55,391 nucleotides of DNA from Candidatus Omnitrophota bacterium (GCA_020354945.1 CP070655.1:697119-752509); one strand, 5' to 3'; positions 10,714 through 49,091 are shown, numbered from the stretch's first letter. Program-made: numbers and translations. The notes: a model not told the origin generated them from the sequence alone.

Positions 10714-10843
10714 TTTATTCTCTATTTCTACTATATATAACACATAAAAGTGGGGAATATTCCACTTTTTTTTGCATAATCAAAAAGTTTTTTAAAGCTT
10801 TAAATATGTGGGGTAAAAAAATAGCCCTTTTCATTACACTATA

Positions 10844-11204: not shown

Positions 11205-13712
11205 TTATCGTTGAGGGGGTTTACCCATCGTAACCCGCACATAGTGGGTCTTTTCATCTTTAAAAATAGGCAGGATATTGGATTTTACACTTTTGCCGTC
11301 AACTCCTATCTCAACTATGCCAGATGAGACATGCTTGCGGTTGATAACGTCTATAATATATTTTGTTCCTCTAAATGCCCTGTAGACCTTAAATAATCGC
11401 CATCTTTTCGGTATGCAGGGCTCTATAAGCAAACCTTTATAAGTAGGTTTTATGCCCAAAATATGTTCAATTAAAATCTTATTTAGCCAGAAGGCACTCC
11501 TCCCATACCAGGAATAGCTGGCCTTCCCAAATTTGCCAGCATCCGGGCCATCTATATAACAAGAGGCCACAAACGGTTCCATTTCGTATATGTCTGCCCG
11601 GTGGGCTCTATGGACCGGATTTAATCTGGAATATATATCCCAGGCATTGTATGCCCTGTCTAATATAGTTTCTGCCCAGGCTGCCCAGCATGCAAATTCT
11701 ATATTAGTGCCGCCATTTTCTTCTGTGCCTGGAGGCAAGTAGCTTAAAGTGCCGATATTGGAATCCGCCGATTCATACGAGGGAGAAACTGCTATAGGTC
11801 CGTGATTTTTGTAAAGATGCTTAGCGGTGGTAATCAAAAGTTTCCTGGCATCATCACCTTTAATTAAACCGCTTATTACAGCCCAGGTTTGCGGATTTAA
11901 AAATATTATGCTGTTTTTTCTGCCAGATTTTCCTATAATAGCGCCTTTTGATGTTATGGCCCTTGGATACCATTCGCATTTTTTGGCAAGCTTATTTATA
12001 TTGTCTTTTATTTGATTGGACCGTTTTATAAAATCAGATGCTATTTTCCCTTCTTTTAATATGTTGCAAATAATAGAAAATTCGTCCATTATATAGCAGG
12101 CGAATTCTCCGAGCCACACAGAAGAACCCTTGCTATCTGTGCCTATTGCATCGAGCTTTTGATTACAATCACCTTTCATAATTAACGGCAGGCCTTTCTT
12201 TGGAGTTGTGGCCAGGACTTTGTCCATGGCTTTTAGGCAATGGTTAAAAATTGTATCGGTGGAAGCTCCAACATATGCTACCTTCTCTTTAAGAATAGTT
12301 AAATCGGCAGTCTCTTTTATATACTCAATGACTGCAAAAATAAGCCATAGGGGTTCATCTGAAAAATGGGATGGTTCTACTTTTGCCGTAGTGGCCCCTT
12401 TTGCAAAAACAGAACCGTCCCCTTTTTCAATTGGGTCCCAATATGTTAAAACATTGCCATCTTGAAATTGCCTTTTTGCGCATTCTATAATATTTTTCTT
12501 GCAGATCTGGGCATCGATAGGAAGAAATGTAAGGCTGTTCAGGATGAAATCTTTAAACTTAACTATTCCTTCTGCGTTATAATAACAGCCCTTAGCAGAT
12601 AATCCGGATGATATCACCTGATACCTGAACCAATTGTTATTAAGGATATTGGCTCCTTCATCCGGCGTTTTTATATTCATAGACCTTTTAAGATATCCTC
12701 CCCAGCGGCTGCCCATATTCGAAAATTCACCTTCTACCTCTTTTATCTTCTTATATTTTTTTATCAAGTCTTTAGCGGTCTTTTCATCAGGGACAGCTCC
12801 TGCAACAAAAATGAGCTCTCGCTCGCCTCTTGCCTCAATGTCTAAATCAATATGCAAGCAGGCCATAGGGTCAACATATCTTCCTTGCTCTTTAAAACAC
12901 ATACCTTTCTCAACAGAGCGAGGATTGGATGCATCCCTGTAAACACCCAAAAATGCCTTTTTGTCCGTAGTAAAACTATTTACTCGTTTGTTTACAGAAT
13001 GAAATTTCACTTCATCTTTTACCGAATAAGCAAAAATTGCAGACAGCTCCTCGTTAAAAGAAGTCCTTAAAAAGGACCTTGCCTGCCGGCAGGCAGGCTT
13101 TTCTTTATTATTCTTATCAAAATCCCATTGAAGATAGCTAAACACACTTATACTCCTTGGTTCATCCAGAATATTTCTTATTCGCAACTGCCATACCTCA
13201 ACCGGTTCCTCTTTTGCAACAAAACATATCACGCTGCTTATTATATCTGCATATCTGTTAGTTATATTTGTATAACCGACGCCATATCTAACTTCATAAA
13301 ATTCAGGTTTTCTGCACACCGGGCCCCAGGTCGGTGACCAAAATTCCTCAGTTTTATTATCTCTTATATAAAAGAATTTTCCGTCTCTATCGGTGTTTAT
13401 GTCGCCGCTCCATGCTGTTATTTTATCGGAAACACTCCCCTTAAAACTAAACCCTCCTCCGGCCTGGGTTACTATAAACCCATAATTATCATTTGTTATT
13501 ATGTTAGCCCACGGAGCCGGTGAATCCGGAGCAGTAATAACATATTCTGAACCATCGTATAGGAAAAACCCATATCTGGTTCTGAATACCTCTTTTACCT
13601 TCTCAAGCGGCAGGAGCAAAGAGGCCATATGCTTCATTTTGGCTTTTGGCCTTTTCTTTTTTGGTTTTTTCTTTTTCTTCATTTTCTTTCTCTTCATTTT
13701 TTTTCTCTTCAT
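11205..13712 (-). CDS. GH94-family glycoside phosphorylase (cellobiose/chitobiose-phosphorylase-like) with a ~27-aa poly-Lys/Arg N-terminal tail
   Basis: 835-aa ORF. From about residue 45 it parallels the in-window paralogue (RYGFFLYDGSEYVITAPDSPAPWANII versus KYGHFSKDGKEFIIINPATPRPWINYL), which is the typical GH94 N-terminus. GGAGG at 13721-13725 lies 8 nt upstream of ATG 13712. Confidence 0.85.
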   Translation of the reverse strand: MKRKKMKRKKMKKKKKPKKKRPKAKMKHMASLLLPLEKVKEVFRTRYGFFLYDGSEYVITAPDSPAPWANIITNDNYGFIVTQAGGGFSFKGSVSDKITAWSGDINTDRDGKFFYIRDNKTEEFWSPTWGPVCRKPEFYEVRYGVGYTNITNRYADIISSVICFVAKEEPVEVWQLRIRNILDEPRSISVFSYLQWDFDKNNKEKPACRQARSFLRTSFNEELSAIFAYSVKDEVKFHSVNKRVNSFTTDKKAFLGVYRDASNPRSVEKGMCFKEQGRYVDPMACLHIDLDIEARGERELIFVAGAVPDEKTAKDLIKKYKKIKEVEGEFSNMGSRWGGYLKRSMNIKTPDEGANILNNNWFRYQVISSGLSAKGCYYNAEGIVKFKDFILNSLTFLPIDAQICKKNIIECAKRQFQDGNVLTYWDPIEKGDGSVFAKGATTAKVEPSHFSDEPLWLIFAVIEYIKETADLTILKEKVAYVGASTDTIFNHCLKAMDKVLATTPKKGLPLIMKGDCNQKLDAIGTDSKGSSVWLGEFACYIMDEFSIICNILKEGKIASDFIKRSNQIKDNINKLAKKCEWYPRAITSKGAIIGKSGRKNSIIFLNPQTWAVISGLIKGDDARKLLITTAKHLYKNHGPIAVSPSYESADSNIGTLSYLPPGTEENGGTNIEFACWAAWAETILDRAYNAWDIYSRLNPVHRAHRADIYEMEPFVASCYIDGPDAGKFGKASYSWYGRSAFWLNKILIEHILGIKPTYKGLLIEPCIPKRWRLFKVYRAFRGTKYIIDVINRKHVSSGIVEIGVDGKSVKSNILPIFKDEKTHYVRVTMGKPPQR

Positions 13713-14059: not shown

Positions 14060-16522
14060 CTACACCACTATATTGACCAGGTGCTTAGGCACAACGATAA
14101 CTTTTTTATATTTTTTATCGCCAATCCATTTTTTTACAATTTTATCCTGGAATACCTTTTCTTTAAGCGCTTCCTCGTCTATATCAGCCGGCACGATAAC
14201 TTTGGAGCGCAGTTTACCGTTAATCTGCACCGGTATAGTAAGCTGCTCTTCTTGTATCAAATCCTTATCGAATTTGGGCCATCTCTGTTTAAATATACTT
14301 TCGGTGTTGCCAAGATTCTGCCATAGCTGCTCGCATATGTGCGGGGTAAATGGTGATAGTAATAATATAACCATTTTGGCTGCTTCTTTTATGGTGCTGG
14401 GGTCCTGGTTTTCATCAAGCGCAATATAAGAATCGTTCACAAGTTCCATAATTGCGCTGATAGCGGTATTAAATTTAAATCCTCCTTCAATATCATCCGT
14501 AACCTTTTTTATGGTTTGGTGTATCTTGCGTGTCAAGTGTGAAGTTTCTGGCGACTGGCGACTGACGACTGACGACTGATTTTTCACCTGTTCCGCCAGC
14601 CGCCAGACTCTACCCAAGAATCTATATGACCCTTCTACGGCTCTATCATTCCATTCTGCATCTCTCTCCGGAGGCCCTATAAACAGCGTATATAATCTAA
14701 CTGTATCCACTCCATATTTTTTGATTAATTCATCGGGGCTTACTACATTTCCTTTTGACTTAGACATCTTGGCACCATTCTTTATTATCATCCCTTGAGT
14801 AAATAATCTGCTAAACGGTTCTCCAAAACTGGTATATCCTAAATCAAAAAGCACTTTGGCAATAAACCTGGAATATAAAAGATGCAGAATGGCGTGTTCC
14901 ACGCCTCCGATATATTGATCTACCGGTAGCCATTTATTTACCAATTTTGAATCAAAGGCCTTGGTATCATCGTGAGCAGATAAATAGCGCAGATAATACC
15001 AACTTGAATCTACAAATGTATCCATAGTATCGATTTCTCGTTTAGCCTTGCCTTTACATTTTGGGCATTTAGTATTTATAAATTCTTTACAATCTGCCAG
15101 AGGCGATTTTCCGTATGGTTTGAATTTGATATTCTCCGGTAGCAAAACCGGCAGGTCTTTTTCAGGCACAGGCACGGTTCCGCATTTCTCGCAATATATT
15201 ACCGGTATAGGCGCTCCCCAATAGCGTTGTCTGGATATGAGCCAGTCTCTTAATTTAAAATGGACGGTTCTTCTGCCTATTTTTATATCCTCCATCCAGT
15301 CAGCTATTTTCTCCATAGCCGTGCGATTATCGAGACCGTCAAACTGAACAGAATTTACCTGGATTCCATCTCCTTCATATGCCTCTTCCAATTCTTCTGG
15401 CGGCTGGCGGCTGGAGGCTGGAGGCTGAATCACAATCTCTATTGGTAAATTATACTTTTTGGCAAATTCGAAATCGCGTTGATCATGGGCAGGTACTGCT
15501 ATAACCGCACCGGTTCCATATTCAACTAAAACATAGTTTGCTAGCCATAGAGGAATCTTTCTTTTATTTGCAGGGTTTATTACATATCTCTGGGTAAATA
15601 TTCCTTCTTTTTCAATTTCAACGGATGCGCGCTCTTGTTTATTCTGCGCTTTTACCTTTTTTATAAAAGAGTATATCTTTTCTTTATCAGGGGAATCTTT
15701 AATGAGGTCTCTTATCCGGGGGTGTGACGGAGCAAGGACCATATATGTTGCGCCGAAAATAGTATCTACTCTTGTAGTGTAGCAGGTCAGAACAATGTCT
15801 GAATCAACCACAGGAAAATCTATCTGAACACCGGTTGATTTCCCTATCCAGTTGGTCTGCATAATCTTAACCCGTTCCGGCCAGTGTTCCAATTTTGAGA
15901 TATCATCTAATAGCCGTTGGGCATAATCGGTAATCTTAAAAAACCACTGCTCTAAATCCTTTTCCCCGACCTTTGTATCGCAGCGTTCGCAGCGGACTCC
16001 CACAACCTGCTCATTGGCCAAAACTGTCTGGCAGGAAGGGCACCAGTTCACAGCAGCCTTTTTCTTATAGGCGAGCCTTTTCTCGTATAATTTTAAGAAT
16101 ATCCACTGGGTCCATTTATAATAATCGGGGTAACAAGAAGTAATCTCTCTATCCCAATCATATCCTATTCCCCATCTGTGAAGCTGTTTCTTCATAATCT
16201 TTATATTATCTTCTGTCGATTTTTTGGGATGGAGCTTCCCTTTTATGGCAGTATTTTCTGCGGGAAGGCCAAAGGCGTCCCAGCCTATCGGAGAAAGGAC
16301 ATTTGCTCCCTGCATAATCTTATAACGGGTTACGCAATCTCCTAATATATAGTTTCTGCCATGGCCTACATGTAATGCCCCTGAGGGATAAGGAAACATC
16401 ACCAGGCAGTAGTATTTGTCTTTTGTTTTAGAAACATCGCACGAAAAAAGTTTAATATCCTGCCAATGTTTTTGCCATTTCGGCTCTATCTCATCAAACG
16501 GATATTGTTTCACCTGGGCCAT
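14060..16522 (-). CDS. leuS: Leucyl-tRNA synthetase
   Basis: 820-aa ORF containing the class I motifs HVGH and KMSKSKGN, and an N-terminus typical of LeuRS (YPFDEIEPKWQKHWQD). GAGGAG lies ~9 nt upstream of the ATG. Confidence 0.97.
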   Translation of the reverse strand: MAQVKQYPFDEIEPKWQKHWQDIKLFSCDVSKTKDKYYCLVMFPYPSGALHVGHGRNYILGDCVTRYKIMQGANVLSPIGWDAFGLPAENTAIKGKLHPKKSTEDNIKIMKKQLHRWGIGYDWDREITSCYPDYYKWTQWIFLKLYEKRLAYKKKAAVNWCPSCQTVLANEQVVGVRCERCDTKVGEKDLEQWFFKITDYAQRLLDDISKLEHWPERVKIMQTNWIGKSTGVQIDFPVVDSDIVLTCYTTRVDTIFGATYMVLAPSHPRIRDLIKDSPDKEKIYSFIKKVKAQNKQERASVEIEKEGIFTQRYVINPANKRKIPLWLANYVLVEYGTGAVIAVPAHDQRDFEFAKKYNLPIEIVIQPPASSRQPPEELEEAYEGDGIQVNSVQFDGLDNRTAMEKIADWMEDIKIGRRTVHFKLRDWLISRQRYWGAPIPVIYCEKCGTVPVPEKDLPVLLPENIKFKPYGKSPLADCKEFINTKCPKCKGKAKREIDTMDTFVDSSWYYLRYLSAHDDTKAFDSKLVNKWLPVDQYIGGVEHAILHLLYSRFIAKVLFDLGYTSFGEPFSRLFTQGMIIKNGAKMSKSKGNVVSPDELIKKYGVDTVRLYTLFIGPPERDAEWNDRAVEGSYRFLGRVWRLAEQVKNQSSVVSRQSPETSHLTRKIHQTIKKVTDDIEGGFKFNTAISAIMELVNDSYIALDENQDPSTIKEAAKMVILLLSPFTPHICEQLWQNLGNTESIFKQRWPKFDKDLIQEEQLTIPVQINGKLRSKVIVPADIDEEALKEKVFQDKIVKKWIGDKKYKKVIVVPKHLVNIVV
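14548..14580. repeat. Heptanucleotide tandem repeat inside leuS (ctggcga x2, ctgacga x2, ctgat)
   Basis: Read directly from the sequence. It encodes the linker segment NQSSVVSRQSP. Confidence 0.9.
15397..15431. repeat. Heptanucleotide tandem repeat inside leuS (ctggcgg x2, ctggagg x2, ctgaatc)
   Basis: Read directly from the sequence. It encodes QPPASSRQPPE and has the same 2+2 architecture as 14548-14580. Confidence 0.9.
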
Positions 16523-40889: not shown

Positions 40890-41468
40890 TCATAAAAAAA
40901 TACCCGTGTCAAACACAAATCCTTTATTTTTTAATTTTTTCATAATAATTTCCAAAGCAGCGGTTGTTTCTCGCCTGGGCCTTGCCTGCCTTATATTTGA
41001 GCCGTCATGTAACACTATGATGCTTTTATGTTTGGCTTGGGATATTACTCTCTCAGCTATAATCTTTGCAGGCGGGTTTTTCCAATCCTCCGGGTCGATG
41101 TCCCAGTTTACAATTCTGTATCCTCTTTTTTTAATAATATCTTCCGCTTTTTTATCGTAAAAACCATAGGGGGCGCGAAAAAATGCGGGTTTTATGCCAA
41201 GCACACCTAAAAATACCTTTTCTGCTTCTATTATCTGCTTTTTAATCCCGGTTTTGGGGAGTTTCTTCAGGTCTTTATGGGAAAAGGTGTGATTGCCTAT
41301 TATGTGGCCTTCCTCTTTAATCATTAAGGCAACCTTAGGGTGAAGTTTAACATTATGGCCTAATAAAAAGAAAATGGCCTTTATCCTGTATTTTTTAAGG
41401 ATATTCAGGATGATGGATGTATAAGGCGGATTGGGCCCATCATCAAAGGTAAGGATTATGCGCTTCAC
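40890..41468 (-). CDS. Polysaccharide deacetylase (NodB homology domain, CE4)
   Basis: 192 aa with TFDDGP, the HTFSH motif, and RAPYG and LHD motifs in NodB order. Confidence 0.88.
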   Translation of the reverse strand: MKRIILTFDDGPNPPYTSIILNILKKYRIKAIFFLLGHNVKLHPKVALMIKEEGHIIGNHTFSHKDLKKLPKTGIKKQIIEAEKVFLGVLGIKPAFFRAPYGFYDKKAEDIIKKRGYRIVNWDIDPEDWKNPPAKIIAERVISQAKHKSIIVLHDGSNIRQARPRRETTAALEIIMKKLKNKGFVFDTGIFL

Positions 41469-41530
41469 AGGAGTTATTGTAGCGGAATAATCTTAGAAAG
41501 TCAATCTCAGTTGTAGGCGTTAGATTAGAG

Positions 41531-41566
41531 GCAAATAAAAATGGGGACGCGCTTGAGCGCGTCCCC
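41531..41566 (-). terminator. Rho-independent terminator after the 835-aa gene
   Basis: 10-bp GC stem ggggacgcgc-ttga-gcgcgtcccc, followed on the minus strand by ATTTTTATTT. Confidence 0.8.
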
Positions 41567-41607: not shown

Positions 41608-44115
41608 TTATACTGCCTCGAGAACGATTTTTCTCATTCTCTTGCGAGAATCATACTTGTCTTCTTCAGGCTCAACTGTAGTCCCGCGAATCTCTGTAGA
41701 ATTTTCAACCGCCTTTCTAAGAACCTCGAGTTGATCTCTAGATATCATGCCTTCCAAAGTTTCAATAGCATTGATAAGCGACTTGCGATGTGAAATATAC
41801 TGGCCTTCCGATGGCCGCATAATAACCTGAACTAACATACCAGCAATGTTTGGATTTGCGGCAATCGCAGCAATCAAGGCTTTGTTTTGTTCTGCCATAC
41901 GGAATAGCACCTCATTAGGCAGAGCGCCTGCCCTTTTGCCTACCGCAGCAACTGCATTTTGAACTTCAGGCGCAATCTCACCGGCAAGTGCTCCAATGTC
42001 AAACAATAAAATTGGTATACCTGCTTGTTGCAATACATCAACTATCTCTTCAGGAGTTTCAAACCTGTTGCTATAAACTGCTCTGTAGTATCTTTGTTTG
42101 CCGCCTGCAGTTTTAATCTCTGCCAATGTATTTAAGTCTGCTATTATACTTACTGCAAAATCAGTCGGCGCATATACTATCTCGCCGGTCTCAGTTTTTC
42201 CAACTTCAACCACTAAAGCATCCAAATCTGTAATTATAAGTTTAGTCTGATTATCAGCCGTTACTATTGGAAGAGATTGCTTGACTTCAGTAGCTTCAAA
42301 AGCACCCTCCTGCTGGATTAAAAGTGCCCTGCCGGCAGGGGTCGGTACTTCTACTGTTTCCAATTCCTCGCCAATTCCAGATATTGCTTCAGCAGGCTCC
42401 ATTAACGCTGATACTTCTTTTACAGGTTCAACAGTAGCAAGCTCACGAAGAACTTCTTCTTCCTCTAATCCCGCCGGGATAGACACTAGCTCAACCTCTT
42501 CCTCTAATGGCGCCGTAATACCAAGCTCTACTTCTTCAGTTGTTACTTCTCCAGTTCCTGAATCTTCTAGATAAATCACTCCTGTGCCAATCCTAATAAT
42601 TTGGGATGTAATACCTTCCCCGGCTGGCAACAGAAGGTCATAAACATTCATTGGAGCCATAAGCGTTACACCTGGAGTGGTCCGCACTCCAGCAAATGCC
42701 TCTTTAAGGTGGGTTATCTGTTCAGGCGTAATCTGGGCAATGTGCTCCGTCACCTTAGCTAGCTCATTTGAAACCTTAACAACTTCGCTATGGGTGGGTG
42801 TTTTTTCGTAGGCGTTGAACATATAAAGCACAATGGCCTCGTGAACTGCAGCATGCGCGAATTCTTGCTGTAATTTCTCACTAGATGCCTCCTCGGTTTC
42901 AGGATTGCCCATTAATCTAATCCTCCTGCTCTTAAAACCAACCTTTCCTGCAAAAGGTTTTAACCCTTTGCTAAATGCCTCTGTACCTTCATTCATGGCT
43001 GTTTTATAAGCTGGTACAGTTACATAGCCTGAAGAAAAAAGTTTAAGCATATAGGAGTAAAAATTTTCTCTTTCTGCTTTAACTTGCTGTTGGGTCGGTA
43101 GCGCACCAGTAGTCAGCTCTGCTAAGCCTTTATAAAATCTGCTTGATTCTGTGCTATTTAAGGCCAGTAAAAGGCGCAACAATGGTACAACCTCTGCTTG
43201 ATTTCCAATCTCAGTTACATTAACTTTGCCTTTTAATAATTCAGGTATATTGATAACATGCTCATTCGCTTCGCCTCTTTCAACAAATGGATTGATAAGA
43301 ACTCTACGCAAGGCATGTGCTGTCTCTCTAACCTTACCAGCTTCTTCAGTTGTAAGGCCTATGGGCACTTCCATAGCTTTCCCAAGCTTTGTTGTTTTTA
43401 TATCGATAGCCATTTCACCGTATATTTTTTGTGCTATAACAGGGCCAAGTTTATTTAAAAGTGTCTGCGTTATAATATTTAATTGCTCATGTTGGGGTGT
43501 AGGGAAAAATACTCTTATAAACTCATGTATAGACATTTTAGCCGCTGACTCTGGCAATAGCGTAACATCTGTTGGAGTTTCCGGCTGGGCCTGGGCTAGC
43601 TTAATTATTCCCGCTGGTGTAAGCTTGCCCGCAAGATTTGCAGGGATTCCGAGTTGCTCCCTTTGCAATGCTTCGGGTAATTGATTGATTGCTGCAGCAT
43701 ATAATGCGCGTTCTTCCTGGGGCCTGGTAGCCAAAGCTGCAATAAGTCCTGGCTGGGCCTGTTCCGGAGCAGTCTCCACTGCCACAACACTTTCTATTCT
43801 CTCCTGTTCCGGATTAGGAACAATGGCGTATAGAAAAGGCTGTTTGGGAACTTCTGGATTTATAGCCACGGCATAATATGTATTCCCTTCTGGTATTGCT
43901 TCTGTGACAAACTCGCTCATATCAGTAATAGCCTTAACTTGTTTATCAAGGTCTGCGCCGCGCTCAGCGGCTGTTTGGGCTGCTTTTAGATCTGAGCGAA
44001 AGTCAGCATTGTATATCGTTTCCACAACAGGGTTATAGCTAAACCCTGCCATCAACAACGCCGCTATAAACACTGCTTCCAAAGATAATATCACTTTCAT
44101 TCTATGCTTTTTCAT
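41608..44115 (-). CDS. 835-aa Ala/Glu/Pro-rich envelope protein with N-terminal membrane anchor, function unknown
   Basis: ATG 44115 lies 3 nt after the upstream stop and is preceded by AGGGGA. TM/signal KVILSLEAVFIAALLMAG; acidic stretch EEVELGITAPLEEEVELVSIPAGLEEEEV. No motif recognised. Confidence 0.7.
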   Translation of the reverse strand: MKKHRMKVILSLEAVFIAALLMAGFSYNPVVETIYNADFRSDLKAAQTAAERGADLDKQVKAITDMSEFVTEAIPEGNTYYAVAINPEVPKQPFLYAIVPNPEQERIESVVAVETAPEQAQPGLIAALATRPQEERALYAAAINQLPEALQREQLGIPANLAGKLTPAGIIKLAQAQPETPTDVTLLPESAAKMSIHEFIRVFFPTPQHEQLNIITQTLLNKLGPVIAQKIYGEMAIDIKTTKLGKAMEVPIGLTTEEAGKVRETAHALRRVLINPFVERGEANEHVINIPELLKGKVNVTEIGNQAEVVPLLRLLLALNSTESSRFYKGLAELTTGALPTQQQVKAERENFYSYMLKLFSSGYVTVPAYKTAMNEGTEAFSKGLKPFAGKVGFKSRRIRLMGNPETEEASSEKLQQEFAHAAVHEAIVLYMFNAYEKTPTHSEVVKVSNELAKVTEHIAQITPEQITHLKEAFAGVRTTPGVTLMAPMNVYDLLLPAGEGITSQIIRIGTGVIYLEDSGTGEVTTEEVELGITAPLEEEVELVSIPAGLEEEEVLRELATVEPVKEVSALMEPAEAISGIGEELETVEVPTPAGRALLIQQEGAFEATEVKQSLPIVTADNQTKLIITDLDALVVEVGKTETGEIVYAPTDFAVSIIADLNTLAEIKTAGGKQRYYRAVYSNRFETPEEIVDVLQQAGIPILLFDIGALAGEIAPEVQNAVAAVGKRAGALPNEVLFRMAEQNKALIAAIAANPNIAGMLVQVIMRPSEGQYISHRKSLINAIETLEGMISRDQLEVLRKAVENSTEIRGTTVEPEEDKYDSRKRMRKIVLEAV

Positions 44116-44118
44116 TTT

Positions 44119-45783
44119 TTATTCCCCTGCTTTTTCTTTGCTTAAATTTTTAAATATTAACTTATGCGCATCGGCAAAGTATTTTGCCGCCTGCTGAAAT
44201 ACTATTGCGTCAGGATTACTCCTTTTATTCCTTGTTAGCTGTTTATGCAGATGTTCCTCAAACGGGGTTCTTTCATTCATAAGCACTGATATATAAGGGT
44301 TATTTTCTTCGTCTAATTCATTCACTTTTGGAGTTACTACCAGGTAAGAGATACCCTTTTTCTTTAAAGCATCGATTATCCCTTCTGTGTGAAATCCTCC
44401 TGCTACTAAAATCGCCTGCTTTATATTAATCTGATTCATTTTATTTACGGTATTATCGACCAGTATTTTGTCTCTCTCTAAGGCCAAACTATAAAATTTT
44501 TCTAAATCCGGAAGCCGGGCATCAATCTTTCTAAATGCAGGATTGATGGTATATTTTATTCTATATTTGGGCGCATTTTCAGTAATAAAATTTATAAAAT
44601 TTGATGCCAGAAATTGGCTTCTGTTTTTTCTGTAATAATCCAGAGTCTTCGTTGTCAGTTTAAGGTTGGCTAAATTTTTCAAAACTTCAATATTTTTAGA
44701 TAATCTATCTATATCCCGTTCTATTTCCCTCATAAACTGCTTATTTTTAATCGCATCCTGTATCCTGTTAATCTCTTCAAAAAGCCCCATATGTTTAATA
44801 TCATTATATACTAATATATAATCTATATATTTTCCAAGCTCGGGATAATCTTCAAAATTAACCCTGGAGGCGTTATCGACAACTTCTTTTAGATATGAGT
44901 AAAATTCGACCGCTCCAATATCTGCTGTCTTAAAATGAAGGCTCATATCCAGAAGTTTTGACAGGTTTTCATCCTTTAATCTTTTGCTTAACTTCTCTAT
45001 GCATTTTGAGCGCTGGGTGTCAACCAGAGTAAAATCTATATCTTTTTCAAGCTCAAGCACCATTATAAGCTTGTTAAAATTACGCCAATTTTCCTTTTCT
45101 ATTTTATATCCAGCAATAAGCCCATTTAAATAAACTGCAAATTCTCCAAAGGAAACTTCTTCATTTTTATATGCTTGAATTTGATTATCGAGCATCAAAA
45201 GCTTTTTGTTATATGCCTTTTGTTTGAATTTACCCAGAATCGATTTTATATTGCCGCAGAAGGCATTGTTTTCGGCTCTGGTGTCTAATGAGCCCCTAAA
45301 GGCTTCTGCATTTTGTTTATACAGAGTTGTATTATCTGCCCCCCAGAATGCAAATGAACTCTTATTCATTATATGGGCATATGCAGCCCCGTCAATTCTT
45401 CCTCTCTTTACAAAGTAGCGGGCTACCTTTGCCTTAATCTCTTCGTCCGGGTAATTAGAAAAAGGCGCAGTCTCTAATCTACCGACAGAACCTTCTACCG
45501 TAACCAGTTTAAAATCGTGTTCATTTACTAGCTTATCTAGCATTTTATATATACTCTGCTGTGCATCGTAATTGCAATGCAAATCCTGAATATGAACGAT
45601 TAACAAATCGCTATAATTGTTGATATACTTATCTTTTATGGTGCCGAAGTTGTCAGGTATTGATAAATTAGAAAGAGATTTTACCTCTTGTATTCCATCA
45701 GCGCTTATAGCAATAGCGCTATTTATGCCTATAAAGCATAGTATAGCTATTATAACTATAAAATATCGTTTAAAATTACCCAT
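44119..45783 (-). CDS. Membrane-anchored protein, possibly of the TIKI/TraB/ChaN-type superfamily; function unknown
   Basis: The track start 45822 is TTG; ATG 45783 (MGNFKRYFIVIIAILCF) is preferred. IVHIQDLHCNYDAQ...LVTVEGSVG near the N-terminus and AILVAGGFHTEGI near the C-terminus resemble the paired GxxH/E motifs of that superfamily. This is from memory and is a weak call. Confidence 0.6.
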   Translation of the reverse strand: MGNFKRYFIVIIAILCFIGINSAIAISADGIQEVKSLSNLSIPDNFGTIKDKYINNYSDLLIVHIQDLHCNYDAQQSIYKMLDKLVNEHDFKLVTVEGSVGRLETAPFSNYPDEEIKAKVARYFVKRGRIDGAAYAHIMNKSSFAFWGADNTTLYKQNAEAFRGSLDTRAENNAFCGNIKSILGKFKQKAYNKKLLMLDNQIQAYKNEEVSFGEFAVYLNGLIAGYKIEKENWRNFNKLIMVLELEKDIDFTLVDTQRSKCIEKLSKRLKDENLSKLLDMSLHFKTADIGAVEFYSYLKEVVDNASRVNFEDYPELGKYIDYILVYNDIKHMGLFEEINRIQDAIKNKQFMREIERDIDRLSKNIEVLKNLANLKLTTKTLDYYRKNRSQFLASNFINFITENAPKYRIKYTINPAFRKIDARLPDLEKFYSLALERDKILVDNTVNKMNQINIKQAILVAGGFHTEGIIDALKKKGISYLVVTPKVNELDEENNPYISVLMNERTPFEEHLHKQLTRNKRSNPDAIVFQQAAKYFADAHKLIFKNLSKEKAGE

Positions 45784-45855
45784 TTCCCCATTCCCCGTTT
45801 TCACGTAGGCAAACTTTTCCAAAACTTTATTTCATATTTTTAAAATTACAACAAA

Positions 45856-45884
45856 AGTATACCATAAAAAACCCTTTTTGTCAA
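45856..45884 (-). promoter_or_regulatory. Near-consensus sigma70 promoter (TTGACA-17-TATACT) ahead of the 567/835-aa genes
   Basis: On the minus strand, TTGACA lies at 45884-45879 and TATACT at 45861-45856, with a 17-nt spacer. Confidence 0.55.
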
Positions 45885-45930
45885 GGGAAAAGTCTAATTT
45901 TTTTACCCCACGCAATGCATCGGCTAGGGG

Positions 45931-48900
45931 TTAAAATTTGCCCTTGTATATCAATCTTACTATATGCTGGGTATCTAAAGGGCCTATAGAGGTATATTCC
46001 TCGTAGTATTCTTTACCGTAACCTGTGTATTCACCAAACATTATGCTAAATGTTTGGTTAGGATTTAGAGCGTAATCAGCAGCTAAAAATACATTGTGGT
46101 GTCCGTCAAAATTTTCCCCTTCTCCGCCAATGGTATCTCTGTAGAGGTCTCTTATCATAGTATAATAATAAGACAAGCCCAATGTAAGTTTATTATCCGG
46201 CTTATATTCAAAGTTAATCCCTGTATGATTTACATTGTCATCTATTGTAGTGGCAAATCTATTTTCATTATATACATAGCTGGGTTCTATTTTCAGGGCA
46301 TCTATAGGATGGCATGCCAACCTTAATTTGTAGATATTGTAGTAACTATAAGGTGGCTGGTCGAATGAACTCTGGCTATATAAAAATGGCACTATCTTAT
46401 CGCAGAGAACCCCATCTCTGGTCTCTTGAGTTACCCACCCATTATTAAGAAGCCCTCTTGGCATATCCAGAGGATCATTTGTGACCTCATATATTGCCTG
46501 CAAAGATAGATTTTTCAATGCATCGTATTTTAAGCCAAGCGAAAAAGTTCCTATTGAAGGATCTTTTCCTTCTTCTATGATGTCGTTTTTCAGCCATACA
46601 TCCTTGTCGCTAAAATAATCGGTAAATGCTATATATGAAGTTTTTGCATTTATTAATGGGTCAATTCCTTCTTCGGTTTCCGGCAAATGTTTATATCTCA
46701 CCATACCTTTTGCCGTAAGTTTTGGAGTCCATTTATATTCTGCCTCCACCCTGGTGACATCTTCGATAAAATTCCCGCTGTCCGAACGGACATCTCTCCA
46801 GTCTAATCTAGTTATTAAGTCATTATTAGGTAAAAGCATAGGAAAAATTACTTTCGCATTTACATTGACAGCAATCCTATCTATATCGATGCCATTACCG
46901 AGCATTTCAGCCTCATTTTCAGGCTTTAAGTCATCAAAATAGATATGTTTTGCGTATATAGAATCCTTTCTTGTCATTCTATAGTTCGATAATCCCGGCA
47001 AGAAGTTATCATTCATATGGGCAAGACTTAAATTAAGCTCATAATGATCTCCAAAAGGGCGCAAATTGCCTTTGTTTTTAAACCCGATTGTGTAACCTGC
47101 GCCCCAGTAATCTCTATCATAATCATTTGCCTCTTCTATATTCGTAAAACTAAAAGCGCATTCTCCGTATATGCTTGTATCAGGAGAATATAAATACTGA
47201 CCGTCAGCGCCTATTACCTGATTCAATGCCTCTATATCCTGTTTATAAATGCCTAACTTTGTTGTGTATATACCAGCCAGTTTGGTATCGCCCATAGCGG
47301 GCAATTTTACCCTAACAGCCCCGGGAACGCTGCTTACCTCATCATAATAATCCCATAAGTTTCTTGGGGCAGCAAATGTAGACTCAATCGATAAAGCGTT
47401 ATCATAATTAGCAGAGGCGCTAATCCCTCTTAAAAATGTCAATCTTTCATAATCGCTATCCTTTGCTACAGATGAAAGCCTTCTTATCCACTGTCCCTGT
47501 TTTACAGGATTACCCGTCCTTGTAAAAACCCTGCTTGGTTCATATTCATCAAGCCAGGGGCTTTCTTCCCACCAGGCCTTATTGTTGGATAAACGCAGGG
47601 GGTCATCGCTGGTTAATGCCTCATCCTGGTTTGCCATAGGAAATAGTCTTATATGATAAGGCCCGTTGTCATAATCGACCCATAACTTCCTTATAGGGAC
47701 ATACATCCTATCTATAGTAGTTTCAGGGACAGTATATGTAGCCGGTCCCCAATCATTAAGGCCAAGATAGGCCTCTTCCGAGGTCTTGCCATCTATTACC
47801 TTGCTTTCCGACAAATTAACAATGTCTCCATTGTCAGCGCGATATGTCTCATTAAGAATCCTTCTTGCATTTGACCAATATTTCAAAGTCATATCTACAT
47901 TGGCGCCGCTTGAGCCTGTAACGGTTACGTCTTTCCTCCCGACAAATGTCCATGGGTCAACCACAATCTCTGAATAAGCGCTTAAATTTTGAGTAACCGG
48001 GCCTTCTGCCTCAACTCTAAGTCTTGAGTATATCTTTCTATCATACATATTATACATACGCTCGCCAAAAAGATATCGCCAGTTCTTCTCGCCTGGCACG
48101 CCGACATGATCGGCATTGGCGTCCTTCCATATAACATCATCTGATGTAAAACCTAATGCGGTTCTATATTCACCGCTTATTTTACCGGGCGCTATGCCGC
48201 TATTTATCTCTTGTGTTCCCTGCTGTATACTCTTGTCAATACCATTACTAAATTCTGCCGGGTCTAAATATTCACGATAAAAAGATTTCATTCTTTCCAT
48301 ACCGGAGACTTCATGGCGAACATGTTCTGGTGGAACTTCCTTAGCTATCCTTTTAGGCTTTTCTATTCTACGCCTTCTTTCAACATGCCGAGGTTTTTCA
48401 CGGACATATTCCGGTGGGGCTTTTTCTGCTTTTGCTGGTTTTTCTATCTCAGGAACTTTTTCTACTCTTTCTGGTCTTTTTACCATTTTCGGTTTTCTTG
48501 CCAGCTCTAGTTTTTCTTTTAAGCGCTCCCTTAACTCCTTAATAGGTCTTCTCCTAACAGGTCTTCTTGCAAGCGGCTTTCTGAATCGCCTCTTTTCAAC
48601 ACGCTCAAGAGCTACTGAGATAGCCTCTTCTCTCTCTCTGGCCATCTTTGACCTCTGCCTTTTTTTTAGCATCTTTTTTATGTACTCTATTCTTTGCTTA
48701 GCTTCCTTAGAAATAGGCTGCACCATTAATGCCTTTTTATATGCTTCTAAAGCAGCCTCTGGCTGATCGTTAACCAAATAGTCTTCCGCTTTCTCTATAT
48801 AATACTGATACACCTGTTTATGCTGGCAAGGCTGGAAGAAATTTGTTGCAACCTCTGCTCCGTAAGAAAAAGGGGTAGAGCTTAACAGAAAAGTAAAAAT

Positions 48901-48936
48901 AAGCCCTACCCTAAATAATTTTTTAATTACCTGCAT
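45931..48936 (-). CDS. ~1,000-aa outer-membrane protein: signal peptide, TPR-like helix pair, ~110-aa basic Pro/Lys/Arg/Glu linker, very large beta-rich C-terminal domain
   Basis: ATG 48936 (MQVIKKLF..) is preceded by GGGAGGTG; the track start 48951 is GTG. The linker reads RRPVRRRPIKELRERLKEKLELARKPKMVKRPERVEKVPEIEKPAKAEKAPPEYVREKPRHVERRRRIEKPKR. The C-terminus ..RLIYKGKF is typical of BAM substrates. Confidence 0.7.
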   Translation of the reverse strand: MQVIKKLFRVGLIFTFLLSSTPFSYGAEVATNFFQPCQHKQVYQYYIEKAEDYLVNDQPEAALEAYKKALMVQPISKEAKQRIEYIKKMLKKRQRSKMAREREEAISVALERVEKRRFRKPLARRPVRRRPIKELRERLKEKLELARKPKMVKRPERVEKVPEIEKPAKAEKAPPEYVREKPRHVERRRRIEKPKRIAKEVPPEHVRHEVSGMERMKSFYREYLDPAEFSNGIDKSIQQGTQEINSGIAPGKISGEYRTALGFTSDDVIWKDANADHVGVPGEKNWRYLFGERMYNMYDRKIYSRLRVEAEGPVTQNLSAYSEIVVDPWTFVGRKDVTVTGSSGANVDMTLKYWSNARRILNETYRADNGDIVNLSESKVIDGKTSEEAYLGLNDWGPATYTVPETTIDRMYVPIRKLWVDYDNGPYHIRLFPMANQDEALTSDDPLRLSNNKAWWEESPWLDEYEPSRVFTRTGNPVKQGQWIRRLSSVAKDSDYERLTFLRGISASANYDNALSIESTFAAPRNLWDYYDEVSSVPGAVRVKLPAMGDTKLAGIYTTKLGIYKQDIEALNQVIGADGQYLYSPDTSIYGECAFSFTNIEEANDYDRDYWGAGYTIGFKNKGNLRPFGDHYELNLSLAHMNDNFLPGLSNYRMTRKDSIYAKHIYFDDLKPENEAEMLGNGIDIDRIAVNVNAKVIFPMLLPNNDLITRLDWRDVRSDSGNFIEDVTRVEAEYKWTPKLTAKGMVRYKHLPETEEGIDPLINAKTSYIAFTDYFSDKDVWLKNDIIEEGKDPSIGTFSLGLKYDALKNLSLQAIYEVTNDPLDMPRGLLNNGWVTQETRDGVLCDKIVPFLYSQSSFDQPPYSYYNIYKLRLACHPIDALKIEPSYVYNENRFATTIDDNVNHTGINFEYKPDNKLTLGLSYYYTMIRDLYRDTIGGEGENFDGHHNVFLAADYALNPNQTFSIMFGEYTGYGKEYYEEYTSIGPLDTQHIVRLIYKGKF

Positions 48937-49054
48937 TCTAGCACCTCCCACCGATACACCGTTGCAAGACGAAGCCTAAGCAATCAGATGCCGTTTTTTT
49001 ATTATAGCATACTTTATAAAAAAATCAACCTCTATTTTATTATATTATTAAATA

Positions 49055-49091
49055 GGAACAGCAACCGTTTATTTTAAACGGTCGCTGTTCC
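49055..49091 (-). terminator. 17-bp hairpin overlapping the stop codon of GH94 gene 2
   Basis: ggaacagcaaccgttta-ttt-taaacggtcgctgttcc, followed by A/T-rich sequence on the minus strand. Confidence 0.6.

What the first reader, a model, noticed from the sequence alone, without database searches (positions are those of the whole stretch)
41608..48936. Three-gene envelope operon of large unknown proteins: a ~1,000-aa OM protein with a polybasic linker, a TIKI/TraB-like membrane protein and an acidic 835-aa protein
The three co-directional genes are as follows.
- The first encodes a signal peptide, one TPR-like helix pair, ~110 aa of KRPE-rich repeats and a ~750-aa beta-rich domain ending in ..YKGKF. 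It is far larger than usual porins.
- After a 147-nt gap containing a TTGACA-17-TATACT promoter comes a 554-aa membrane-anchored protein. Its HIQDLH...VEG and GGFHTEG motifs are reminiscent of TIKI/TraB/ChaN-type metallo-enzymes.
- Three nucleotides later an 835-aa Ala/Glu/Pro-rich anchored protein begins, with visibly higher G+C than its neighbours.
A CE4 polysaccharide deacetylase follows. None of the three has a function I can recognise. The TPR + linker + giant barrel layout recalls exopolysaccharide export porins (BcsC/PgaA type), with the deacetylase paralleling PgaB, yet no synthase glycosyltransferase is present.
Basis: partly seen in the sequence, partly recalled or inferred. Interest (0 to 1): 0.6.

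Follow-up and report, generated by a model that had tools for sequence, protein, structure and literature searches.

The report
Sugar-locus barrel beside split giant-protein pair
In a tiny uncultured Omnitrophota bacterium, a very large outer-membrane barrel from a sugar-uptake gene cluster sits beside a two-gene, miniature version of the phylum's puzzling giant modular proteins, which could be a small model for studying them.

Summary
They are probably two units, not one envelope operon.

**Gene 1** (1001 aa) has a signal peptide, one TPR pair, a disordered K/R/P/E linker and an outer-membrane barrel of about 30 strands. Its family is Omnitrophota-specific. In about 20 of 23 loci it sits among sugar-capture and sugar-uptake genes. 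It is most likely an outer-membrane oligosaccharide channel.

**Genes 2 and 3** have their own promoter-like site and terminator.
- Gene 2 (554 aa) is a free-standing copy of a ~520-aa "head" domain. That domain forms the N-terminus of long and giant Omnitrophota proteins (open frames up to 14,309 aa).
- Gene 3 (835 aa) is an anchored "body plus tail" built from shuffled modules.

The head has an invariant His/Asp/Glu/Arg set, so a hydrolase role is plausible. Membership of the TIKI/TraB family could not be shown.

Gene 1 and the head occur independently across 201 genomes. The three-gene order holds only within one order. The BcsC/PgaA-PgaB analogy fails on strand number, on the missing synthase and on the leaderless CE4. 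Gene 3's higher G+C reflects its amino-acid composition, not foreign origin.

The parts
49001..49028 (-). Promoter-like site (TTGATT-16-TATAAT with TG) upstream of gene 1. It lies just after a 15-bp hairpin that overlaps the GH94 stop codon.
   Evidence: This is a consensus match only.
45931..48936 (-). Gene 1: a 1001-aa outer-membrane protein (signal peptide, TPR pair, long helix, charged linker, ~30-strand barrel, C-terminal Phe). The longest ORF starts at a GTG at 48951.
48721..48828 (-). Gene 1 residues 37-72: the TPR-like helix pair.
   Evidence: Weak Pfam TPR_1 hit. A profile of the family matches designed TPR proteins. AlphaFold2 predicts helices here.
48238..48594 (-). Gene 1 residues 115-233: a disordered K/R/P/E-rich linker.
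   Evidence: pLDDT is below 50. In relatives the linker runs from about 20 to over 300 aa and is basic or acidic.
45934..48183 (-). Gene 1 residues 252-1001: a beta-barrel domain with 32 DSSP strands of at least 6 residues and a near-invariant terminal Phe.
   Evidence: Foldseek matches 22-30-strand barrels at E = 2.5e-11 to 1e-7.
45856..45884 (-). Promoter-like site TTGACA-17-TATACT (TG-extended) for genes 2-3. It overlaps a weak hairpin plus T-run at 45887..45872.
44119..45783 (-). Gene 2: a 554-aa free-standing 'head' module. It has an N-terminal leader or anchor (residues 8-26), an alpha/beta core (about residues 47-150 and 455-485) and a ~300-aa helical insert. Q66, D67, H69, E97, G98, R437 and G462-G-F-H-T466 are invariant; H64 is near-invariant.
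41608..44115 (-). Gene 3: an 835-aa anchored modular 'body + tail'. It starts 3 nt after the gene 2 stop.
42646..43563 (-). Gene 3 M module (about residues 185-490). It is flanked by DVTLLPES (read by eye, around residue 183) and DLLLPA (residue 493). P0197, P0199, P0202, P0203 and P0205 share it.
41611..42360 (-). Gene 3 C-terminal 'tail' module (about residues 586-835). P0196, P0198, P0200, P0201, P0204 and P0206 share it.
41543..41566 (-). Intrinsic-terminator-like hairpin (10 bp, 9 G-C pairs) plus a T-run after gene 3.
40890..41468 (-). Neighbouring CE4 deacetylase (192 aa, no signal peptide) with its own promoter-like site at 41504..41476. It is probably a separate transcription unit.

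Best explanation
The stretch holds two Omnitrophota-specific units that lie side by side.

**Unit A is gene 1.** It is a Sec-exported outer-membrane protein. Its periplasmic part is one TPR pair, a long helix and a disordered charged linker. Its membrane part is a barrel of about 30 strands that ends in Phe. It belongs to the phylum's sugar-capture and sugar-uptake cluster and most likely lets beta-linked gluco- or chito-oligosaccharides cross the outer membrane. Secreted GH-A hydrolases and a CBM-like protein would act outside or in the periplasm. Cytoplasmic GH94 phosphorylase, ROK kinase and possibly CE4 would finish the breakdown. This follows the logic of a polysaccharide utilisation locus.

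**Unit B is genes 2 and 3.** They are a translationally coupled pair, and they form a split, miniature version of the giant modular proteins of Omnitrophota.
- Gene 2 is the ~520-aa head that otherwise forms the extreme N-terminus of proteins of 1.6 to over 14 thousand residues.
- Gene 3 is a membrane-anchored body plus tail, built from modules that are shuffled among relatives and bounded by short junction motifs.

The head is probably a metal-dependent hydrolase on the outer face of the cytoplasmic membrane. It may act on, or mature, its partner protein, possibly at the junction motifs.

**Shown:** the domain anatomy, the family distributions, the gene neighbourhoods, the N-terminal position of the head, and the recurrence of fused and split forms.

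**Inferred:** the direction of sugar transport, the catalytic activity of the head, any cleavage, and the topology.
For: **Gene 1**
- The AlphaFold2 model shows the leader, TPR, linker and barrel.
- Foldseek matches large barrels: TonB-dependent receptors, LptD and Deinococcus SlpA, at E = 2.5e-11 to 1e-7.
- More than 120 homologues were found, nearly all labelled Omnitrophota. The gene is single-copy in this genome. Full-length copies occur in 45 of 201 genomes of the phylum.
- In 20 newly fetched loci plus 4 others, the usual neighbours are a solute-binding protein with two permeases, GH2/GH72-like GH-A hydrolases with leaders, a conserved secreted ~200-aa protein, GH116, GH94, a PilZ-toroid protein, ROK and MFS_2. 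Gaps to the upstream hydrolase are often only 2-25 nt.
- The window's GH94 is closest to cellobiose phosphorylase (E = 2.7e-145) and chitobiose phosphorylase (E = 4.6e-131).
- West-Roberts et al. (10.1101/2023.11.21.568195, section 11) describe PilZ genes, solute-binding proteins, permeases and glycoside hydrolases downstream of giant genes.

**Genes 2 and 3**
- A profile of 50 homologues finds the head domain in 149 of 201 genomes, with up to 14 matches per genome. Of the 150 best places, 62 lie in open frames over 3000 aa (maximum 14,309) and 28 in frames of 750 aa or less.
- In four long ORFs the domain occupies residues ~12-532 or ~52-571.
- In 80 loci from GTDB species genomes the domain always sits at the ORF's N-terminus. 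The median distance from the upstream in-frame stop is 36 aa (n = 78). In 47 of 70 informative loci the ORF runs on for at least 300 aa; 22 stop within 40 aa.
- Fifteen of the 22 stand-alone loci have a long ORF (at least 420 aa) starting within 82 nt downstream, and nearly all of these begin with a basic plus hydrophobic N-terminus.
- Fused bodies carry PGM and CofD domains. Gene 3 relatives carry galactokinase, cupin GPI, GHMP-kinase and transaldolase domains.
- Modules are shuffled: the M module occurs with two different tails.
- Junction motifs are enriched: KASSAG-like 16 observed against 0.06 expected, DLLLPS-like 13 against 1.5.
- The head has an invariant polar set, and its model is confident (pLDDT 91.2).
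- The pair has its own promoter-like site, a 3-nt spacer and a terminator.
Against:
- The direction of transport through gene 1 is not shown.
- A 30-strand barrel is far larger than known sugar channels.
- In sister genomes a GspC-like PDZ protein and a PKD protein lie directly upstream of gene 1. In other genomes T2SS-F and pilus-type genes lie nearby. This hints at protein export or surface display instead.
- The window's own cluster has no ABC importer next to it.
- The head has no significant match to any hydrolase family or solved fold.
- The junction motifs were defined after seeing them, and cleavage is untested.
- Gene 3 itself has no KASSAG motif and no recognisable enzyme domain.
- The positive-inside rule places cytoplasm-type sugar-phosphate enzymes of relatives outside the cytoplasmic membrane. 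This paradox remains unexplained.
- Some stand-alone heads, including this genome's own paralog, have no large partner gene.
Confidence: 0.55

Rival explanations
1. The three genes, together with the GspC-like PDZ and PKD proteins in sister genomes, form one secretion or surface-display unit. The ~30-strand barrel would be the outer-membrane translocon or usher. It would carry gene 3-type and giant modular proteins, or PKD/SdrD-like surface proteins, out of the periplasm. The gene 2 head would prime or process them.
For: - The 1-2-3 order is kept in five loci of one order even though the upstream context differs.
- A GspC-like PDZ protein lies directly upstream of gene 1 in L001, L002 and L010.
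- In G067 and G039, head-bearing long proteins lie on the same contig as the gene 1 cluster, on its upstream side.
- T2SS-F and a protein with a pilus N-terminal domain lie near gene 1 in other families.
- Single-chain barrels of 26-36 strands are known from established work to handle large cargo (LptD, SprA).
- Every gene 3-position protein ends in a hydrophobic tail of the kind PDZ domains bind.
Against: - The two families are distributed independently across 201 genomes: both present in 22, gene 1 only in 23, head only in 127, neither in 29.
- Outside one order no head gene lies next to gene 1.
- The window genome lacks the PDZ/PKD pair.
- The dominant neighbours are sugar-catabolic and importer genes.
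- Separate promoter-like and terminator-like signals surround each unit.
Confidence: 0.2
2. One reading: an exopolysaccharide export apparatus. Gene 1 would be a BcsC/PgaA/PelB-type TPR porin, the CE4 a PgaB-like modifier, the upstream PilZ protein the c-di-GMP switch, and GH94 possibly working in the synthetic direction.
For: - The TPR plus barrel layout.
- The PilZ-TM-toroid protein and GH94 directly upstream.
- CE4 downstream in the window, L001 and L010.
Against: - The barrel has about 30 strands, and the best fold matches are 22-30-strand barrels, not 16-18-strand exporters.
- No glycosyltransferase was found among the neighbours annotated.
- ABC importer, ROK, MFS and GH116 genes in the conserved context argue for uptake.
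- The CE4 has no signal peptide and sits behind a strong terminator with its own promoter-like site.
Confidence: 0.08
3. Gene 1 is mainly a structural outer-membrane protein, either a general porin or an envelope tether like Deinococcus SlpA. It would have a periplasmic coiled or charged stalk that reaches the cell wall. Its position near sugar genes would be incidental.
For: - SlpA (the 30-strand SDBC barrel, 7zgx and 8agd) is among the fold matches.
- A long helix and a charged linker precede the barrel.
- No LptD-family match was found anywhere in the genome.
Against: - The family is present in only about 45 of 201 genomes of the phylum.
- The linker's charge and length are not conserved.
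- It has no SLH, OmpA or other wall-binding domain.
- Linkage to glycan genes is tight and recurrent.
Confidence: 0.07

Closest known systems
Giant modular ('Archaeovorin' / multi-enzyme metabolic) proteins of Omnitrophota (West-Roberts et al. 2023, bioRxiv 10.1101/2023.11.21.568195; bioRxiv 10.64898/2026.06.07.730766)
   Same: The same phylum. An N-terminal leader or anchor is followed by an unannotated N-terminal region, which I identify here as the gene 2 head. Bodies are built from interchangeable modules, including sugar-phosphate enzymes. The genes lie near PilZ, solute-binding protein, permease and glycoside hydrolase genes.
   Different: Here the head is a separate 554-aa gene and the body is only 835 aa, with no recognisable enzyme domain. 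Neither paper, as far as I could read, defines the head domain or its conserved residues. I did not test whether the head tops the proteins above 30,000 aa.
SusC/SusD-type and other outer-membrane glycan uptake channels of polysaccharide utilisation loci
   Same: An outer-membrane barrel is encoded among secreted glycoside hydrolases, a carbohydrate-binding-like protein, an inner-membrane sugar importer and cytoplasmic finishing enzymes.
   Different: There is no plug domain, TonB box or SusD partner. The barrel has about 30 strands, not 22. It carries an N-terminal TPR and a charged linker. It has no sequence homology to these channels.
TPR-porin exopolysaccharide exporters (BcsC, PgaA, PelB, AlgK/AlgE)
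   Same: A periplasmic TPR is followed by an outer-membrane barrel, with a PilZ protein and a CE4 enzyme nearby.
   Different: Those barrels have 16-18 strands and sit in operons with a synthase and a periplasmic modifier. Here the barrel has about 30 strands, no synthase was found, the context is catabolic, and the CE4 has no leader.
TIKI/TraB/PrgY/ChaN/erythromycin-esterase superfamily
   Same: The motif order fits: H-x-Q-D-x-H on an early strand, a Glu at the end of the next strand, an Arg, then G-G-F-H before a helix. The alpha/beta core is interrupted by a helical domain. The protein is membrane-tethered.
   Different: No significant sequence, profile or fold match was found. The first motif is QDxH, not GxxH or GExxH. 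The helical insert is far larger (~300 aa).
Large single-chain barrels LptD (26 strands), Deinococcus SlpA (30) and SprA (36)
   Same: The size class of the barrel, and generic fold matches to LptD and SlpA.
   Different: It has no OstA/LptD, SLH or T9SS features and no sequence similarity to them. Its gene context is different.

Membership tests
BcsC/PgaA/PelB-type exopolysaccharide export porins | A C-terminal barrel of 16-18 strands | tested here: not met
   The AlphaFold2 model has 32 DSSP strands of at least 6 residues between residues 252 and 1000. The top 50 Foldseek matches are 22-30-strand barrels.
BcsC/PgaA/PelB-type exopolysaccharide export porins | An operon with a polymer synthase (glycosyltransferase) | tested here: not met
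   No GT family appeared among the window neighbours or the cluster representatives that I scanned. Not every neighbour was scanned.
BcsC/PgaA/PelB-type exopolysaccharide export porins | A long periplasmic multi-TPR domain | tested here: inconclusive
   This protein has one TPR pair. Some relatives have several TPR hits. A profile of the family matches designed TPR proteins.
PgaB-like periplasmic deacetylase partner | An exported (lipoprotein or signal-peptide) CE4 enzyme co-transcribed with the porin | tested here: not met
   The CE4 begins MKRIILTFDDGP with no leader. It scores only 25 bits against the PgaB model, whose cut-off is 322. A terminator and its own promoter-like site separate it from gene 3.
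TonB-dependent receptors / SusC | An N-terminal plug domain and a TonB_dep_Rec barrel signature | tested here: not met
   No Pfam or NCBIfam hit other than weak TPR. The fold matches are generic, with TM-scores of 0.19-0.39.
LptD | An OstA N-terminal jellyroll and the LptD C-terminal family signature | tested here: not met
   No PF04453 match anywhere in the genome, gene 1 included. The N-terminus is a TPR plus a disordered linker.
TIKI/TraB/PrgY/ChaN/Ere superfamily (gene 2) | Significant sequence or profile similarity to PF01963, PF04187 or PF05139 | tested here: not met
   No Pfam hit for gene 2. ChaN matches 2 of 50 members at E = 0.037. hhalign against an Omnitrophota TraB gives probability below 1%. 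PDB profile searches of the whole domain and of the core alone find nothing.
TIKI/TraB/PrgY/ChaN/Ere superfamily (gene 2) | The conserved catalytic pattern in order: (G)xxH, Glu, Arg, GxxH | tested here: inconclusive
   Invariant Q66-D67-x-H69 (H64 near-invariant), E97-G98, R437 and G462-G-F-H465 lie in that order. By eye they line up with LLGSIH...VLVLE...VRNRE...VVGAGH of the TraB in L035. The match is not statistically supported.
TIKI/TraB/PrgY/ChaN/Ere superfamily (gene 2) | Fold similarity of the alpha/beta core | tested here: inconclusive
   Foldseek with the whole model puts EreC (6xcq) at rank 4 (E = 0.56, probability 0.14) and 2rad at rank 11. No hit has E below 0.3. The core alone could not be searched.
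Omnitrophota giant modular proteins | The shared head domain at the extreme N-terminus behind a leader | tested here: met
   The gene 2 domain heads ORFs of 1648, 3107, 3678 and over 6239 aa and lies at the N-terminus in 78 of 78 loci. In the window it is a separate gene.
Omnitrophota giant modular proteins | A body of interchangeable modules, including cytoplasm-type enzymes | tested here: inconclusive
   Gene 3's relatives carry galactokinase, GPI, GHMP-kinase and transaldolase domains, and its modules are shuffled. Gene 3 itself has no recognisable enzyme domain.
Omnitrophota giant modular proteins | Very great length (at least 10,000 aa in the 2026 catalogue) | tested here: not met
   Genes 2 and 3 together encode 1389 aa. 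The largest ORF in this genome is 4593 aa.

The most novel reading that the evidence does not exclude
The gene 2 head is a membrane-tethered, metal-dependent processing protease, possibly a very divergent TIKI/TraB fold. It would cut exported Omnitrophota polyproteins at lineage-specific junction peptides, here DxLLLP(S/A) and, in sister genomes, K(A/T)SS(A/S)G. The window's 554-aa plus 835-aa pair would then be the smallest natural trans-acting version of the system, and a tractable model for how the phylum's giant proteins are matured.
Probability: 0.2. Interest if true: 0.8.

Novelty: new variant of a known kind. Interest (0 to 1): 0.55.

Why it matters
Giant proteins of Omnitrophota (up to about 147,000 aa in the 2026 preprint) have no known mechanism. 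Their N-terminal regions are described in print as lacking identifiable domains.

This work shows that a defined ~520-aa domain with invariant catalytic-type residues heads many long proteins of the phylum. It also exists as a free-standing gene coupled to an 835-aa partner in a 1.14-Mb genome. That gives a small, expressible pair for testing whether the head cuts, docks or exports the body.

Separately, gene 1 defines an unannotated family of ~30-strand outer-membrane barrels tied to sugar-uptake clusters. If it is a glycan channel, it would be a new answer to how these ultra-small, possibly predatory cells take up large oligosaccharides.

Tried and rejected
- **Pfam and NCBIfam on all three proteins:** nothing above cut-off.
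- **PDB sequence and profile searches:** gene 2, its core alone, gene 1 (TPR hits only) and the gene 3 tail all gave nothing useful.
- **Foldseek of the gene 2 model:** no hit with E below 0.3.
- **hhalign of the gene 2 profiles against the single canonical TraB found in 81 Omnitrophota genomes:** not significant.
- **Pfam on ten divergent gene 2 homologues:** no TIKI-clan hit.
- **Word-indexed homologue search for gene 3:** it found only itself. The exhaustive search found 12 relatives.
- **The other 835-aa ORF in the window (11205..13712):** tested as a possible paralog of gene 3; it is unrelated.
- **Horizontal origin of gene 3:** rejected on GC3.
- **A PDZ protein binding the gene 3 C-terminal tail in this genome:** the genome has no orthologue of the PDZ/PKD pair.
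- **The gene 3 M and tail modules inside sampled giant ORFs:** not found.
- **P0101, an apparent GH116-gene 1 fusion:** it is two adjacent genes called as one ORF, with an internal signal peptide.

Full report
**What is there**

All genes in 38-55 kb of the window lie on the minus strand. Three ORFs match the finding:
- Gene 1, 45931..48951. The collection's record of this protein is 1001 aa, which puts the start at the ATG at 48936.
- Gene 2, 44119..45783 (554 aa from the ATG).
- Gene 3, 41608..44115 (835 aa).

None of the three reaches a Pfam or NCBIfam cut-off. The flanking genes are recognisable:
- Upstream lie a GH94 phosphorylase and a PilZ protein with a glycosidase-like toroid.
- Downstream lie a 192-aa CE4 deacetylase, an MscS-like membrane protein and YchF.

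The genome is a single 1.138-Mb contig.

**Transcription signals (consensus scans only)**

- A TG-extended TTGATT-16-TATAAT precedes gene 1. It follows a 15-bp hairpin that overlaps the GH94 stop codon.
It was the best promoter match in the region scanned.
- Gene 3 starts 3 nt after the gene 2 stop, behind an SD-like GGGGA.
- A 10-bp G+C-rich hairpin with a T-run follows gene 3. CE4 then has its own TTGACT-17-TACAAT.

I read this as three likely transcription units: gene 1, genes 2-3, and CE4.

**Gene 1**

With a 52-sequence alignment, AlphaFold2 gave pLDDT 79.6 and pTM 0.71. The model shows:
- a leader helix;
- helices 37-72 (TPR);
- a long helix 77-115;
- disorder over 115-233;
- then 32 strands of at least 6 residues up to residue 1000.

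The terminal Phe is nearly invariant. Foldseek matches large barrels: TonB-dependent receptors, LptD and the 30-strand Deinococcus SlpA. E-values run from 2.5e-11 to 1e-7, but TM-scores are only 0.19-0.39. The similarity is therefore generic.

The linker is 31% K+R here. In relatives it runs from about 20 to over 300 aa and may be acidic instead, so a polybasic linker is a lineage trait.

The family has more than 120 members, almost all labelled Omnitrophota. It is single-copy in this genome. Full-length copies (E below 1e-100) occur in 45 of 201 sampled genomes of the phylum.

**Context of gene 1**

I fetched 20 loci around homologues from many families, clustered the neighbouring ORFs and annotated representatives.

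The recurrent order is:
- SBP_bac_8 solute-binding protein;
- two BPD_transp_1 permeases;
- a ~780-aa GH2/GH72-like (clan GH-A) protein with a leader;
- a conserved secreted ~200-240-aa protein;
- a ~410-aa GH72-like protein;
- gene 1;
- ROK;
- MFS_2 or other genes.

Variants carry GH116, GH94, a ~1070-aa GH94-like protein and the PilZ-toroid protein. The upstream hydrolase often ends 2-25 nt before gene 1.

About 20 of 23 distinct loci hold such genes. The window has a reduced version: GH-A, the secreted protein, PilZ-toroid, GH94, then gene 1. Its GH94 is closest to cellobiose and chitobiose phosphorylases.

This is the logic of a sugar-utilisation locus. It matches the "carbohydrate import systems" that West-Roberts et al. 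describe downstream of giant genes. I therefore favour an outer-membrane oligosaccharide channel.

Some facts point another way:
- The barrel is much larger than known sugar channels.
- In the sister family a GspC-like PDZ protein and a PKD protein precede gene 1.
- T2SS-F and pilus-type genes occur nearby elsewhere.

A translocon or usher role therefore remains a serious rival.

**Gene 2**

Seventy-four length-matched homologues were found. Nearly all that carry a source name are Omnitrophota, with a few labelled Elusimicrobiota or Endomicrobiales. Fifty of them were aligned. Q66, D67, H69, Q75, E97, G98, R437, G462-G-F-H-T466 and P485 are invariant, and H64 is conserved in at least 90%.

The model is confident (pLDDT 91.2). 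It shows an N-terminal helix, a small alpha/beta core (strands 47-53, 61-67, 93-96, 145-149, 456-462 and 479-485) and a ~300-aa helical insert.

The key result came from searching whole genomes with the profile:
- The domain is present in 149 of 201 genomes, with up to 14 matches per genome.
- Of the 150 best places, 62 lie in open frames over 3000 aa (maximum 14,309) and only 28 in frames of 750 aa or less.
- In four long ORFs that I inspected it occupies residues ~12-532 or ~52-571.
- A pattern scan of one genome per GTDB species gave 560 confirmed loci.
- In the best 80 of these the domain always lies at the N-terminus of its ORF. Forty-seven of 70 informative loci run on for at least 300 aa, and 22 stop within 40 aa.
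- Fifteen of the 22 stand-alone loci have a long ORF starting within 82 nt downstream. Nearly all of these begin with basic residues and a hydrophobic helix, as gene 3 does.

Gene 2 is therefore the free-standing form of the head of the phylum's long and giant proteins. West-Roberts et al. state that giant-gene N-terminal regions "generally lack identifiable domains". The 2026 preprint does not define such a domain in the passages I searched.

**Is the head a TIKI/TraB/ChaN enzyme?**

- The motif order fits. By eye it lines up with the one canonical TraB I could find in the phylum.
- No significant match appeared by Pfam, by PDB profile search, by hhalign or by Foldseek.
- The weak pointers are EreC at Foldseek rank 4 (probability 0.14) and ChaN matching 2 of 50 members at E = 0.037.

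Membership is unproven. A metal-dependent hydrolase remains the most natural reading of an invariant His/Asp/Glu/Arg set.

**Gene 3**

The exhaustive search of 1.8 billion representative proteins found only 12 relatives. Gene 3 consists of:
- an anchor (residues 8-26, with a mid-helix Glu where relatives have Gln or Glu);
- an N-terminal region;
- an M module (~185-490), shared with P0197, P0199, P0202, P0203 and P0205;
- a 24%-Glu linker;
- a tail (~586-835), shared with P0196, P0198, P0200, P0201, P0204 and P0206.

The M module also occurs with a different tail in P0197, so modules are shuffled.

Relatives embed galactokinase, cupin GPI, GHMP-kinase and transaldolase domains. Head-fused long proteins embed phosphoglucomutase and CofD domains. 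This matches the "multi-enzyme metabolic" class in the 2026 preprint.

Modules are bounded by short motifs:
- DxLLLP(S/A) flanks the M module.
- K(A/T)SS(A/S)G punctuates the sister-family proteins.
- Observed against expected counts are 13 against 1.5 and 16 against 0.06. I defined the motifs after seeing them.

Gene 3's raised G+C (z = +1.46) comes with a normal GC3 (z = -0.56). It therefore reflects Ala/Glu/Pro/Gly-rich composition, not foreign origin.

**Are the three genes one system?**

The order 1-2-3 is kept in the window, L001, L002/L003, L009 and L010. All belong to one order, and their upstream contexts differ. No head gene lies next to gene 1 in the 18 other loci from outside that order.

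Across 201 genomes the counts are:

| Gene 1 family | Head domain | Genomes |
|---|---|---|
| present | present | 22 |
| present | absent | 23 |
| absent | present | 127 |
| absent | absent | 29 |

This gives no positive association. This genome's second head copy has unrelated neighbours. The two units are at most loosely linked as parts of the same giant-gene and sugar-gene neighbourhood. In G067 and G039 a head-bearing long protein lies on the same contig as the gene 1 cluster, on its upstream side.

**Earlier notes of this scan**

I consulted these notes after reaching the points above. They describe, in other genomes, a ~540-aa protease-like head, a conserved ~500-aa partner protein, a shared C-terminal tail, genome-specific junction peptides, and a GspC-like protein next to a large TPR barrel. 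They agree with what I measured, but they are not independent evidence.

**Open problems**

- By the positive-inside rule, both gene 2 and gene 3 face away from the cytoplasm. Relatives nevertheless carry ATP- and sugar-phosphate-dependent enzymes.
- No expression data could be consulted.

Noticed in passing
window 1..10743 (-), extending to about 3 kb before the window start: A 4593-aa ORF, the largest in this 1.14-Mb genome. It and a 1696-aa protein elsewhere in the genome both end in ...ERII. The genome-wide profile search found the gene 2 head only at gene 2 and its paralog, so this ORF does not carry it.
   Followed up: partly
G000:C1:626788-628650 (-), outside the window: A 620-aa paralog of gene 2 with the same IHIQDAH, LLEG and GGFHT motifs and a ~60-aa C-terminal extension. 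Its neighbours are unrelated (an RND-type transporter, a rubrerythrin-like protein), and no large partner gene follows it.
   Followed up: partly
window 53561..54163 (-): A secreted ~200-aa protein with no Pfam family. It is 65-68% identical across distant Omnitrophota families, which makes it the best-conserved member of the sugar cluster around gene 1. It could be a binding partner of the barrel.
   Followed up: partly
window 49058..49090 (-): A 15-bp hairpin (GAACAGCGACCGTTT / AAACGGTTGCTGTTC, with one G-U pair) overlaps the GH94 stop codon, directly before the promoter-like site of gene 1.
   Followed up: no
window 42456..42537: A 39-nt tandem repeat (2.2 copies, 76% matches) inside the Glu-rich linker of gene 3, at about residues 527-553.
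   Followed up: no
whole genome G000: No match to the LptD family (PF04453) at E <= 0.01 anywhere in the genome (89% complete), although the same search matched E. coli and Caulobacter controls.
   Followed up: no
L001 323-3572; L002 1600-4837; L010 12049-16652: In the sister family a PKD-domain protein (850-1301 aa) and a GspC-like PDZ protein (216-231 aa) lie directly upstream of the gene 1 homologue. The window genome has no orthologue of either.
   Followed up: partly
L009 14090-16147; L010 3555-6110: The gene 3-position proteins of the sister family consist of repeated ~80-100-aa helical modules. Each starts at K(A/T)SS(A/S)G, four per protein. They end in ...QALAALIAA.
   Followed up: partly
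window 11205..13712 and 14060..16522 (-): Two more ORFs of 835 and 820 aa. The first contains an IEPCIPKRW stretch like the IDPCIPKKW of the GH94 at 49069..51522, so it may be a further GH94-type phosphorylase. I did not scan either ORF.
   Followed up: no
P0193 (Endomicrobiales record): A distant gene 2 homologue (22% identity) lies in a 937-aa partial protein that also has a PduL (phosphate propanoyltransferase) domain.
   Followed up: no
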